The notes under the pieces: model-generated | Told to the model about the DNA's origin: nothing | What the model saw: only the letters and a program-made list of their open reading frames with translations | The model's database searches: none | Part shown: one piece after another, positions 34,065 to 35,528 of the stretch | Numbering within the stretch: position 1 is the stretch's first letter | Layout of the letters: each line of letters starts with the position of its first letter | Made by a program: the position numbers and the translations under genes | Origin: Planctomycetota bacterium | GTDB lineage: Bacteria > Planctomycetota > UBA1135 > UBA2386 | Length of the DNA: 64,000 nt | Assembly (NCBI GenBank): GCA_947501605.1 | Contig: CANMWZ010000003.1 | Location: forward strand, 11,746-75,745 | Direction: 5' to 3'

Positions 34065-35199
34065 CCAACATGTAGACCTGCCCCTGGATCTCGCCGTCGA
34101 ACTCGACCACGCGCAGGAGCTGGAAGGTGACGGCATCGAACACCTGGAAGTCACTGCCGGCGCCGCCGACGTAGACCTTGCTACCGTCCGGCGCGATCGC
34201 TGCCAGCGACTGCCGTGGACGGAACTCGGTCTGGAACTCACGCAGCTTCTTGCCATTCTCGAGGTCGTACAACTGGATGGTCGTCTTGCGGTCACTGCCG
34301 CCACCCCAGCCACCATTGCTCGACACAGTCAGTTTCGCATCCCGCGAAAGATAGGAACCGAACCCACTTGGTCCCTGACCCCACTCGACCATATCGGTGA
34401 TCTTCTTCTGCTGGAGGTCGATATCCACGTAGCCCCAACTCGAGCGGCTGTGCTGCACCGGGTCGCTGTACGAGCACAACATGCGGTACTTGTTCGGGTC
34501 TCTGCCAAACAGCAGATCCGTGCGGCGCAGTGAGATACGGCCCTGGCCGGCGAACTGTGGGGTGGCGAGATCGATCTTGCCCGTCTCCTTCAACGTCTTG
34601 GGGTCGACGATCTGCAGATTGCCGTCGCGGTCGAACACGTGCCATGAGAGGCCGTCGGGAGAGATCCGCGCACCGCGAGAGAGGATCTGCGGCATGCGCC
34701 GCATCTTGCGCACGATCTTTCGTTCGCCGACGTCGTAGAGCAACGTCTGCGCTGGCTGAAACTCATAGCGATCCACCAACTTCTTCACTCGATCGGTCTC
34801 GACGTACCATTGGGTCCCGCCGGGCAGTTCCGAAATGCTGCGCACGCGCACGATGACGCCTTCTTCACTGAAGTCGTGGACCGACGCCACCGCGCCCTGC
34901 TTGCAGTCGACGATCTCAACCTTGCGCTGCGTGTCCGTGATCACGGCGAAGTGCTGACGGTCGAACAACAGGGTCACGCCCCAGGACATGCCATTCTGGA
35001 GTTGGATCTTCTTCACCACCGTGTCGGTGACTGGATCGAACTCGACCATGAAATCGGGATACGCCGCGAACCAGAAGTGCGCGGCGGGTACCGCAGGCGC
35101 GGCAGCGACGGGGTCCTGCGGTGGCGCCGAAGTGCACGCACATGCAGCGACCGAAGCCAGGCCAGCCAGCAAGAACGCGGCGATCGTAGAACGCGTCAC
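34057..35199 (-). CDS. qhpB: QHNDH beta subunit (beta-propeller), QhpB
   Basis: GTG 35199 overlaps the qhpC stop (GTGA). Signal/lipobox-like TIAAFLLAGLASVAAC. Repetitive beta-strand pattern. The C-terminal ...KVYVGGAGSDFQVFDAVTFQLL resembles P. putida QhpB ...KLYLGGTFNDLAVFNPDTLEKV. Confidence 0.8.
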   Translation of the reverse strand: MTRSTIAAFLLAGLASVAACACTSAPPQDPVAAAPAVPAAHFWFAAYPDFMVEFDPVTDTVVKKIQLQNGMSWGVTLLFDRQHFAVITDTQRKVEIVDCKQGAVASVHDFSEEGVIVRVRSISELPGGTQWYVETDRVKKLVDRYEFQPAQTLLYDVGERKIVRKMRRMPQILSRGARISPDGLSWHVFDRDGNLQIVDPKTLKETGKIDLATPQFAGQGRISLRRTDLLFGRDPNKYRMLCSYSDPVQHSRSSWGYVDIDLQQKKITDMVEWGQGPSGFGSYLSRDAKLTVSSNGGWGGGSDRKTTIQLYDLENGKKLREFQTEFRPRQSLAAIAPDGSKVYVGGAGSDFQVFDAVTFQLLRVVEFDGEIQGQVYMLDV

Positions 35200-35528
35200 G
35201 GGAACACCAAATCGATGGACTTCCAGTCTTGCACGGGCGCGCCACACGAGGCGGTCCACTTCGGGAAGTTGGTGACGCCGTCTGGCACTTGCGCTGGCCA
35301 ATAGCAGGTGTGGTAGCAATCGTACAGGTCGCGCTCGATCGGCTGGCAGAGGCCGTGGACGCCGCCGCTGCTGTCGACTTCCCAGCCCGGAGCGAACACC
35401 GTCGTGCAACCATACGGATACTCCGTGGGCGGCGGATCCTGAGTCAACGGCATCAGGGCACCGCGCTGTTCGACGACGAGAGCCGCGATACGGCGCGCCT
35501 TTTGGTTGAGGGGGCGAACGTGTGTCAT
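35196..35528 (-). CDS. qhpC: QHNDH gamma subunit precursor (CTQ-bearing, thioether-crosslinked), QhpC
   Basis: 110 aa. The core [44 protein letters not shown] matches the conserved QhpC core, with all crosslink residues at the canonical spacing. The ATG overlaps the qhpD stop (ATGA). Confidence 0.9.
   Translation of the reverse strand: [110 protein letters not shown]

What the first reader, a model, noticed from the sequence alone, without database searches (positions are those of the whole stretch)
35196..35528. QhpC precursor: every crosslink residue is conserved at canonical spacing, with a longer leader and a fifth cysteine
Seen: the core is residues 41-83, [43 protein letters not shown] (nt 35280-35408).

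The spacings are C41-E50 (+9), C61-D67 (+6), C71-W77 (+6) and C75-D83 (+8). These equal the published crosslink map of the Paracoccus gamma subunit as I recall it: Cys7-Glu16, Cys27-Asp33, Cys37-Trp43 (forming CTQ) and Cys41-Asp49. The offset is a constant 34.

Inference: this predicts a leader of about 34 residues ([34 protein letters not shown]), compared with about 28 in Paracoccus.

There is also an extra Cys95 (TASCGAP) in the C-terminal tail, with no partner in the canonical map. It could be free, form a disulfide, or form an additional thioether.
Basis: partly seen in the sequence, partly recalled or inferred. Interest (0 to 1): 0.6.

Follow-up and report, generated by a model that had tools for sequence, protein, structure and literature searches.

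The report
QhpC precursor with conserved fifth cysteine
This is the gene for the small, internally cross-linked subunit of a bacterial amine dehydrogenase, ordinary in its known features, but it carries a fifth cysteine that is conserved across many non-proteobacterial relatives and whose chemistry nobody appears to have studied.

Summary
ORF 35196-35528 on the minus strand (110 aa) is a genuine qhpC, the gamma-subunit precursor of quinohemoprotein amine dehydrogenase (QHNDH). It sits in a complete, translationally coupled qhpF-A-D-C-B-E cluster, with qhpG opposite, in a Planctomycetota-like chromosome.

- **Crosslink map:** it aligns without gaps to both solved gamma subunits at a constant offset of 34. 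All eight crosslink and CTQ residues are in place.
- **Leader:** the "34-residue leader" is doubtful. The leader proper (M-K-H-L..N8-x-K10-A11..V-x-A-M/L) has the same length as in canonical QhpC. The six extra residues lie after the conserved cleavage motif, in a linker that varies from 6 to 19 residues in this clade. Cleavage may therefore give a leader of about 27 residues and a longer mature N-terminal arm.
- **Cys95:** it is not a polymorphism. It is present in 120 of 120 nearest homologs (Planctomycetota, Acidobacteriota) and in other groups, including Bacillota. It is absent (Ala/Lys/Ser) only from the canonical proteobacterial clade, where both solved structures belong.
- **Partner for Cys95:** no conserved partner cysteine exists in the alpha, beta or gamma subunit, so a disulfide is unlikely. 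Every Cys95 bearer (173 of 173) has Asp or Glu at +6, the same C-x5-D spacing as Cys27-Asp33.

A fourth QhpD-made thioether (Cys95-Asp101) is the favoured reading (about 0.4) but is unproven.

The parts
35196..35528 (-). qhpC CDS: 110-aa precursor of the QHNDH gamma subunit. Its start overlaps the qhpD stop (ATGA) and its stop overlaps the qhpB start (GTGA).
   Evidence: Pfam PF08992 E 3.8e-32. NCBIfam NF037958, 126.8 bits against a cut-off of 50, covering residues 1-110. 1jju_C and 1jmx_G alignments.
35448..35528 (-). Leader proper, residues 1-27. It contains N8, K10 and A11 and ends at the position homologous to the canonical QhpE cleavage site (A28|M29 in canonical QhpC; P27|L28 here).
   Evidence: N8, K10 and A11 are conserved in at least 119 of 120 sequences of each clade. 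The distance from N8 to the cleavage motif is nearly constant. The 28-residue leader is documented in PMC7876137.
35409..35447 (-). Variable linker or N-terminal arm, residues 28-40 ([13 protein letters not shown]), between the conserved cleavage motif and Cys41. It contains the six residues that are extra relative to canonical QhpC.
   Evidence: The distance from the motif to the Cys is 6 residues in 120 of 120 canonical sequences, but 6 to 19 in the five-Cys clade (13 here).
35280..35408 (-). Crosslinked core, residues 41-83. C41-E50, C61-D67 and C75-D83 are the predicted QhpD thioethers. C71-W77 is the predicted CTQ.
   Evidence: Ungapped alignment to 1jju_C and 1jmx_G at offset 34. All eight residues are invariant in 120 nearest and 120 canonical homologs.
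35226..35246 (-). Cys95 (TGT, 35244-35246) to Asp101 (GAC, 35226-35228): C-G-A-P-V-Q-D. This is the candidate fourth thioether ring (C-x5-D).
   Evidence: Cys95 is present in 120 of 120 nearest homologs and 0 of 120 canonical ones. Asp101 accompanies Cys95 in 172 of 172 complete sequences. An acid sits at +6 in 173 of 173.
35525..36958 (-). qhpD: radical SAM/SPASM maturase that installs the Cys-to-Asp/Glu thioethers.
   Evidence: TIGR03906, 510.5 bits against a cut-off of 453. The CX3CX2C motif and seven SPASM Cys are conserved in 70 orthologs.
36943..39282 (-). qhpA: di-heme alpha subunit (779 aa, two CXXCH motifs) with low-complexity extensions.
   Evidence: TIGR03908, 387.7 bits against a cut-off of 274. 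Pfam alpha-subunit domains are present. Only the four heme Cys are conserved.
34057..35199 (-). qhpB: divergent beta-propeller beta subunit (380 aa, GTG start).
   Evidence: Position in the conserved A-D-C-B order. The match to TIGR03907 is weak, 37 bits against a cut-off of 223, as is the match to 1jju_B, E 5e-4.
33396..34064 (-). qhpE: subtilisin-like leader protease (222 aa from the ATG at 34064, which overlaps the qhpB stop).
   Evidence: NF049966 QhpE, 85 bits (below the cut-off of 165). Pfam Peptidase_S8. The start codon was determined.
31982..33385 (+). qhpG: flavin monooxygenase that dihydroxylates the CTQ tryptophan.
   Evidence: NF049967 QhpG, 180 bits (below the cut-off of 240). Pfam FAD_binding_3.
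39378..41087 (-). qhpF-like ABC exporter (569 aa, permease plus ATPase).
   Evidence: Pfam ABC_tran E 1.3e-28. It lies upstream of qhpA in Planctomycetota relatives.

Best explanation
The ORF is qhpC, the ribosomally made precursor of the roughly 9 kDa gamma subunit of a quinohemoprotein amine dehydrogenase, from a freshwater-type Planctomycetota genome.

**Inferred pathway, by homology to the Paracoccus and Pseudomonas systems:**
- The N-terminal leader (N8-x-K10-A11 motif) docks the peptide on the radical SAM enzyme QhpD.
- QhpD makes the thioethers C41-E50, C61-D67 and C75-D83.
- QhpG dihydroxylates W77, which becomes cysteine tryptophylquinone with C71.
- QhpE removes the leader, and the ABC exporter QhpF moves the product out for assembly with QhpA and QhpB.

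**Two points differ from the textbook system.**
1. The precursor has 6 more residues between the conserved cleavage motif and the first Cys. The leader is therefore probably about 27 residues with a longer mature N-terminal arm, rather than a 34-residue leader.
2. It belongs to a large, uncharacterised branch of the family that carries an invariant fifth cysteine (Cys95). This Cys has no cysteine partner. It most likely receives a fourth QhpD-type thioether to Asp101 (C-x5-D, the same ring size as C61-D67). The four-Cys proteobacterial enzymes would then be a form that lost this link.

The identity and the conservation pattern are shown. The fourth thioether and the cleavage site are inference.
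For: **Identity**
- Pfam and NCBIfam matches are above their cut-offs, and the alignment to the two solved gamma subunits is ungapped.
- qhpD and qhpA are above the NCBIfam equivalog cut-offs. The cluster is complete and its start and stop codons overlap.
- The A-D-C-B order is kept in most of the 80 related genome loci.

**Taxon**
- The best genome matches are Planctomycetota MAGs, at 93% and 85% identity.

**Cys95**
- Cys95 is invariant in the 120 nearest homologs, which range from 55% to 94% identity.
- It is absent from 120 canonical homologs, of which 119 have exactly 4 Cys.
- It is present in further groups, including Bacillota QhpC, and in the cultured Edaphobacter modestus.

**No Cys partner**
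- QhpB (72 orthologs) has no conserved Cys.
- QhpA (67 orthologs) conserves only the four heme Cys.
- Among Cys95 bearers, 168 of 173 have exactly 5 Cys in the core region, from Pro38 onward.

**Thioether to Asp101**
- Asp101 is the only acidic residue that is present in all Cys95 bearers and not already used by a known link: 172 of 172, against 180 of 186 in non-Cys95 sequences.
- An acid lies exactly at +6 in 173 of 173. In the 9 sequences with a one-residue insertion, Glu fills the +6 position (C-x5-E-D-W).
- The direction (Cys N-terminal to the acid) and the ring size match the known Cys27-Asp33 link.
- The 7-Cys variants have two further Cys that can pair with each other, which leaves Cys95 single.

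**Leader**
Against: - Asp101 is also nearly invariant (115 of 120) in canonical QhpC, which lacks Cys95. Its conservation therefore does not need a crosslink.
- The signal of 6 in 186 against 0 in 172 is weak and is not corrected for phylogeny.
- The 9 C-x5-E-D-W sequences are probably one lineage.
- No structural test was possible. The AlphaFold2 model had a mean pLDDT of 58, with the core below 55, and no coordinates of 1JJU or 1JMX are available here.
- An invariant buried free thiol would fit the same data.
- QhpB, QhpE and QhpG score below the NCBIfam equivalog cut-offs. The enzyme's substrate, and even its exact maturation steps, may therefore differ from the model systems.
- Pro at the predicted P1 position (P27) is unusual for a subtilisin-type cut, which weakens the prediction of a 27-residue leader for this particular sequence.
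Confidence: 0.8

Rival explanations
1. Cys95 is a free thiol that is never crosslinked. It is conserved because it is buried in packing against the alpha or beta subunit, or because it has a redox, ligand or catalytic-tuning role near CTQ. The gamma subunit would have only the canonical three thioethers plus CTQ.
For: - Asp101 is conserved with or without Cys95, so no residue is uniquely tied to Cys95.
- The canonical enzymes work with Ala, Lys or Ser at this position.
- All accessible literature describes exactly three QhpD thioethers.
Against: - The invariance is strict: 172 complete Cys95-bearing sequences across several phyla, with a single Tyr substitution inside the clade.
- A lone free thiol would be unusual in an exported, oxidising-compartment subunit whose other four Cys are all covalently bonded to non-Cys residues.
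- A dedicated Cys-to-Asp/Glu crosslinking enzyme sits on the same peptide.
- The acid is exactly placed at +6 and is maintained through an indel.
Confidence: 0.35
2. Cys95 is crosslinked, but to a partner other than Asp101. Within this clade the candidates are Asp106 or Asp70, both clade-specific invariant acids. Other possibilities are an aromatic residue (W91 or W102), giving a second Cys-Trp type link, or a residue of another subunit.
For: - R66, D70 and D106 are invariant (120 of 120) in the clade of the window. R66 and D70 are replaced by A and G in the canonical clade. D106 is only partly conserved there (69 of 120).
- W91 and W102 are invariant in the 121 five-Cys-clade sequences and are Trp in both solved subunits.
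Against: - Other Cys95-bearing groups have G/A/S/L at position 70 and N/T/Q/K/E/C at position 106. Neither residue can therefore be a general partner.
- D70 lies N-terminal to the Cys, unlike every known QhpD link.
- W91 and W102 are equally conserved in the solved four-Cys subunits, and W102 in every canonical member of a 127-sequence alignment.
- No extra maturase gene was noticed in the cluster.
Confidence: 0.12
3. Cys95 forms a disulfide, either within the gamma subunit or to the alpha or beta subunit.
For: A minority group has an additional Cys at position 106.
Against: - 168 of 173 Cys95 bearers have exactly five Cys in the core region, from Pro38 onward, four of them committed to known links.
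- There is no conserved Cys in 72 QhpB orthologs.
- Only the four heme-binding Cys are conserved in 67 QhpA orthologs.
- The variants with Cys106 also carry another extra Cys (position 42 or 53). The two extras can therefore pair with each other.
Confidence: 0.03

Closest known systems
QhpC / gamma subunit of quinohemoprotein amine dehydrogenase of Paracoccus denitrificans (PDB 1JJU chain C, 1PBY) and Pseudomonas putida (1JMX/1JMZ chain G)
   Same: - The alignment over the whole mature domain is ungapped (E 5e-24 and 1.3e-22).
- All eight crosslink and CTQ residues are at identical spacing.
- The leader has the same N-x-K-A motif and a V-x-A|M/L-type junction.
- The same qhpA-D-C-B core gene order is present, with qhpE, qhpF and qhpG nearby.
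   Different: - A fifth Cys (Cys95) replaces Ala61.
- The CTQ loop is C-Y-H-T-C-Y-W rather than C-A/S-D-P-C-W-W.
- R66, D70 and D106 are clade-specific invariants.
- There are 13 rather than 6 residues between the cleavage motif and the first Cys.
- The protein ends at F-P with no C-terminal tail.
- The partner subunit QhpB is barely recognisable as the canonical beta subunit: 37 bits against a cut-off of 223, and E 5e-4 to 1jju_B.
Ranthipeptide / SCIFF systems (for example freyrasin PapA/PapB)
   Same: The maturase is a QhpD/PapB-type radical SAM/SPASM enzyme (second-best NCBIfam hit rSAM_PapB, 265 bits). It links the Cys sulfur to the beta or gamma carbon of a downstream Asp or Glu on a leader-bearing precursor.
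   Different: The product here is a subunit of a redox enzyme carrying a quinone cofactor, not a secreted small peptide. The rings are C-x5 to C-x8 rather than C-x3-D repeats.
Uncharacterised five-Cys QhpC homologs in Planctomycetota, Acidobacteriota (including Edaphobacter modestus DSM 18101) and Bacillota (Sporosarcina soli, Planococcaceae), annotated in databases simply as QhpC or hypothetical protein
   Same: - They share Cys95 and the C-x5-D-W motif.
- Within Planctomycetota and Acidobacteriota they share the full signature (R66, D70, Y72, Y/F76, D106-L-V-F-P) and the gene order.
   Different: The window's protein is not identical to any of them (best 94% and 93% identity). It has Pro instead of Ala at the predicted P1 position of the leader junction, as do 7 of its 120 nearest homologs.

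Membership tests
QhpC (QH-AmDH gamma subunit; Pfam PF08992, NCBIfam NF037958) | Sequence match to the family models above the curated cut-offs | tested here: met
   PF08992 scores 110.6 bits against a cut-off of 25. NF037958 scores 126.8 bits against a cut-off of 50, with full-length coverage.
QhpC (QH-AmDH gamma subunit; Pfam PF08992, NCBIfam NF037958) | Four Cys, Glu, two Asp and Trp at the positions of Cys7-Glu16, Cys27-Asp33, Cys41-Asp49 and Cys37-Trp43 | tested here: met
   Ungapped alignment to 1jju_C and 1jmx_G at offset 34. The map was confirmed in PMC8172795 and PMC7876137.
QhpC (QH-AmDH gamma subunit; Pfam PF08992, NCBIfam NF037958) | N-terminal leader peptide of the QhpC type, needed for QhpD binding and removed by QhpE | tested here: met
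   The motif M-x-H-x-x-x-x-N8-x-K10-A11 ... A/P-(M/L) is shared with 120 canonical precursors. Function and cleavage site were not tested.
QhpC (QH-AmDH gamma subunit; Pfam PF08992, NCBIfam NF037958) | Encoded in a qhp cluster with qhpA, qhpB and qhpD (plus qhpE, qhpF and qhpG) | tested here: met
   QhpD (TIGR03906) and QhpA (TIGR03908) are above their cut-offs. QhpB, QhpE and QhpG are the best hits but fall below the equivalog cut-offs (37/223, 85/165, 180/240). An ABC exporter is adjacent. The order is conserved in related loci.
QhpC (QH-AmDH gamma subunit; Pfam PF08992, NCBIfam NF037958) | Thioether bonds and the CTQ cofactor are actually formed in the mature subunit | not testable with these tools
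   This requires mass spectrometry or a structure of the protein. The AlphaFold2 model was of low confidence (pLDDT 58).
Canonical (four-Cys, proteobacterial) QhpC subgroup represented by the solved structures | Exactly four Cys; Ala/Lys/Ser at position 95; A66, G70 and the C-(A/S)-D-P-C-W-W loop; 34 residues before the first Cys | tested here: not met
   The window has 5 Cys, C95, R66, D70, C-Y-H-T-C-Y-W and 40 residues before Cys41. Canonical values are 119 of 120 with 4 Cys, 0 of 120 with C95, and 116 of 120 with 34 residues.

The most novel reading that the evidence does not exclude
Most non-proteobacterial QHNDH gamma subunits (Planctomycetota, Acidobacteriota, Bacillota and others) carry a fourth QhpD-installed thioether, Cys95-Asp101 (C-x5-D), in the C-terminal tail. 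The well-studied three-thioether Paracoccus and Pseudomonas enzymes would then be a derived form that lost it. QhpD would make four rings on one substrate, and the C-terminal region would be stapled rather than folded freely.
Probability: 0.35. Interest if true: 0.55.

Novelty: new variant of a known kind. Interest (0 to 1): 0.4.

Why it matters
QHNDH is the model system for enzyme-installed Cys-to-Asp/Glu thioethers and for CTQ biogenesis. All biochemistry so far comes from two proteobacterial enzymes with four Cys.

This work shows that a large and phylogenetically broad part of the family has a strictly conserved fifth Cys, with an acid at +6 and no Cys partner. That yields a concrete, cheaply testable prediction of one more crosslink, or alternatively a conserved free thiol. 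Cultured organisms are available for the test (Edaphobacter modestus DSM 18101, Sporosarcina soli).

It also warns that leader and core boundaries in this clade cannot be read off by counting back from the first Cys. For the window itself, the practical result is a confident annotation of a complete, divergent qhp cluster.

Tried and rejected
1. **AlphaFold2 of the precursor.** I used a 127-sequence alignment to see whether Cys95 and Asp101 come close. Mean pLDDT was 58 and the core was below 55, so the model is unusable. No fold search was run on it.
2. **Disulfide partner search.** I looked for a conserved Cys in QhpB (72 orthologs) and QhpA (67 orthologs). None was found beyond the heme-binding Cys, so a disulfide was rejected.
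3. **Asp70 or Asp106 as the general partner.** These are clade-specific invariant acids. They were rejected as general partners because other Cys95-bearing groups lack them.
4. **Primary literature.** I tried to read the QhpE, QhpD and structure papers (PMC3307263, PMC4409272, PMC64671) for the exact cleavage site and helix positions. They are not held. The cleavage site A28|M29 was instead inferred from the documented 28-residue leader plus alignment.
5. **Searches for any mention of a fifth Cys.** Searches on QhpC, on QHNDH, and on quinohemoprotein amine dehydrogenase with Planctomycet found nothing. This covers only the open-access library.
6. **Multi-stretch hits.** Long proteins with many weak QhpC-like stretches in the representative search (P0190, P0211, P0243) are unrelated tandem-repeat proteins.
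7. **Canonical QhpB comparison.** phmmer alignment to 1jju_B and 1jmx_B was too weak (E 5e-4 and 6e-3) to map the interface positions that face residue 95.
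Full report
**Observation**

The feature is real and lies on the minus strand. ORF 35196..35528 encodes 110 aa. The residue numbers, the spacings (C41-E50 +9, C61-D67 +6, C71-W77 +6, C75-D83 +8) and the nucleotide range of the core (35280-35408) are all correct.

It is not a chance ORF:
- Pfam PF08992 gives E 3.8e-32.
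- NCBIfam NF037958 (QH_gamma, equivalog) gives 126.8 bits against a cut-off of 50 and covers residues 1-110.
- phmmer against PDB sequences finds only the two solved gamma subunits, 1jju_C (E 5e-24) and 1jmx_G (E 1.3e-22). Both alignments are ungapped, with query 39/40-110 matching chain 5/6-76.

That fixes the offset at 34. So C41, E50, C61, D67, C71, C75, W77 and D83 correspond to Cys7, Glu16, Cys27, Asp33, Cys37, Cys41, Trp43 and Asp49.

**Context**

The gene sits in a complete qhp cluster on the minus strand:

| Gene | Coordinates | Evidence |
|---|---|---|
| ABC exporter (qhpF-like) | 39378-41087 | Pfam ABC_tran |
| qhpA | 36943-39282 | TIGR03908, 388 bits, cut-off 274; two CXXCH motifs |
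| qhpD | 35525-36958 | TIGR03906, 510 bits, cut-off 453 |
| qhpC | 35196-35528 | see above |
| qhpB | 34057-35199 | best hit TIGR03907, below cut-off |
| qhpE | 33396-34064 | best hit NF049966, below cut-off |
| qhpG (plus strand) | 31982-33385 | best hit NF049967, below cut-off |

- Start and stop codons overlap at D/C (ATGA), C/B (GTGA) and B/E (ATGTCTGA).
- QhpB, QhpE and QhpG are the best hits to their families but fall well below the equivalog cut-offs (37/223, 85/165, 180/240). QhpB is only marginally similar to 1jju_B (E 5e-4). This is therefore a divergent QHNDH.
- The flanks are housekeeping genes (ThiC, SAICAR synthetase, IF-2B family, BacA/UppP). GC content is 65%.
- The nearest genome matches are freshwater Planctomycetota MAGs, at 93% and 85% identity.
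- The A-D-C-B order is kept in most of the 80 related loci. Planctomycetota relatives also share F upstream, E downstream and G on the opposite strand.

**The leader**

Canonical QhpC has a 28-residue leader that QhpD needs and QhpE removes (PMC7876137). In 120 canonical homologs the first crosslink Cys is preceded by exactly 34 residues in 116 cases, that is, 28 leader residues plus 6.

The joint alignment of 240 precursors gives a different picture of where those residues sit.
- The leader proper is the same length in both clades and is clearly homologous: M-K-H-L-x-x-x-N8-x-K10-A11 ... V-x-A-(M/L)-(Q/E). N8, K10 and A11 are conserved in at least 119 of 120 sequences of each clade.
- In canonical sequences, residue 28 is the conserved Ala and residue 29 is the conserved Met. 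An example is Azoarcus, ...EEVVA28|M29SAVVGC35.
- In the window's clade the same motif is followed by a linker of 6 to 19 residues before the Cys, 13 in the window.
- The extra 'QDPPPT' is therefore inserted after the conserved junction.

If QhpE recognises the conserved junction, the leader is about 27 residues (P27|L28) and the mature subunit is 83 residues with a longer N-terminal arm. If it measures from the core, the values are 34 and 76. I favour the first option, but this sequence has Pro rather than Ala at the predicted P1 position, as do 7 of the 120 nearest homologs. The site needs experimental mapping. In either case the length difference reflects a hypervariable linker and is not a special property of this gene.

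**Cys95**

Both solved subunits have Ala here. That test fails clearly.
- Cys95 is present in 120 of 120 nearest database homologs, spanning 55-94% identity.
- Canonical homologs have A, K, S, V or E at this position (0 of 120 Cys), and 119 of 120 have exactly four Cys.
- The clade containing the window also has invariant R66, D70 and D106, and a different CTQ loop (C-Y-x-T/S-C-Y/F-W instead of C-A/S-D-P-C-W-W).
- An exhaustive HMMER search of 1.84 billion cluster representatives, plus a profile search, showed further QhpC groups that have Cys95 without that signature. These have G/A/S/L at position 70 and N/T/Q/K/E at position 106.
- Those groups include RefSeq proteins of Bacillota (Sporosarcina soli, a Planococcaceae strain). 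The cultured acidobacterium Edaphobacter modestus DSM 18101 also has Cys95.

Cys95 is thus a family-wide feature outside the canonical proteobacterial clade. I infer that the four-Cys state is probably a loss.

**What Cys95 does**

A disulfide is unlikely.
- 168 of 173 Cys95 bearers have exactly five Cys in the core region, from Pro38 onward.
- Alignment of 72 QhpB orthologs shows no conserved Cys.
- In 67 QhpA orthologs only the four heme Cys are conserved.
- The rare 7-Cys variants carry two further Cys (position 42 or 53, plus 106) that can pair with each other.

Like the four canonical Cys, Cys95 therefore faces a non-Cys partner or none.

Among acidic residues, only Asp101 is present in every Cys95 bearer and not already used by a known link.
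- Asp101 accompanies Cys95 in 172 of 172 complete sequences, against 180 of 186 without Cys95.
- Measured on raw sequences, all 173 Cys95 bearers have an acid exactly at +6.
- 164 are C-x5-D-W. The 9 sequences with a one-residue insertion are C-x5-E-D-W.
- C-x5-D is the ring size and direction of the known Cys27-Asp33 link, which a QhpD-type enzyme makes and which is encoded immediately upstream.

This makes a fourth thioether, Cys95-Asp101, the best single hypothesis. I put it at about 0.35-0.4.

The evidence is circumstantial. Asp101 is also conserved in four-Cys proteins. The statistical contrasts are small and not phylogenetically independent. A conserved free thiol remains almost as likely. 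A different partner (D106 or D70 within this clade, or an aromatic residue) is less likely, because those residues are either not general or are equally conserved in four-Cys proteins.

**Comparison with what is known**

By every testable criterion this is a member of the QhpC family. It is not a member of the canonical four-Cys subgroup from which all biochemistry derives.

The accessible literature, including a 2021 mechanistic paper, a 2021 review and a 2025 review, describes only three QhpD thioethers plus CTQ and does not mention a fifth Cys. The primary QhpD and QhpE papers could not be read, so prior mention cannot be excluded.

**Verdict**

The gene identification is solid and ordinary. 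The 'longer leader' is a linker-length variation whose assignment to the leader is doubtful. The fifth cysteine is a real, conserved and apparently unstudied feature of a broad branch of the family. It gives a cheap, decisive mass-spectrometry experiment. Interest is moderate (0.4), and the finding is a new variant of a known kind.

Noticed in passing
window 35140-35199 (minus strand; QhpB N-terminus): QhpB starts with the GTG that overlaps the qhpC stop. Its signal peptide ends in a lipobox-like V-A-A-C (MTRSTIAAFLLAGLASVAAC), which suggests a lipoprotein beta subunit. The Cys is present in only about 5% of 72 orthologs, so this is local to close relatives.
   Followed up: partly
window 36943-39282 (minus strand; QhpA): The alpha subunit is 779 aa, against a family model of about 510 positions. 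It has a Pro/Ala/Gly-rich low-complexity stretch after the signal peptide (about residues 35-135), a Gly/Ala-rich insertion (about 275-335) and a Pro-rich C-terminal tail (about 670-779). TIGR03908 matches in two stretches.
   Followed up: no
window 29798-31930 (+): A 710-aa ORF with no Pfam match lies directly upstream of qhpG on the same strand. It is conserved at 57-61% identity next to the qhp cluster in three Planctomycetota relatives (L002, L005, L007). It may be a cluster-associated protein of unknown role.
   Followed up: partly
window 41260-42327 (-): A DUF3187 gene (E 7e-31) lies immediately upstream of the qhpF-like ABC exporter. It is conserved in the same place in L002 and L003, at about 50% identity.
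   Followed up: partly
proteins P0212, P0217, P0219, P0222, P0240 (metagenomic QhpC homologs): This QhpC subgroup has seven Cys: the canonical four, Cys95, and two more (position 42 as a 'CC' doublet or position 53, plus position 106). The protein ends in L-C-x-V-P-D. It may carry an extra disulfide or further crosslinks.
   Followed up: partly
proteins P0417 and P0423 (Planococcaceae, Sporosarcina soli): QhpC homologs with Cys95 occur in Gram-positive Bacillota, which have no periplasm. The loop is C-Y-G-D-C-W-W-A-A and the C-terminus is K-F-I-D-E/G rather than V-F-P.
   Followed up: no
loci L016-L080 (Acidobacteriota): tblastn with the window's QhpG found no match at E below 1e-5 within 10 kb of qhpC in most Acidobacteriota loci, whereas Planctomycetota loci have it on the opposite strand. 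QhpG may be too diverged to detect or may be encoded elsewhere.
   Followed up: no
window 36943-36958 (qhpA/qhpD junction): qhpD has two possible starts: the ATG at 36958, and the ATG at 36946, which overlaps the qhpA stop as ATGA. The family model aligns from residue 17, so either start is possible.
   Followed up: no
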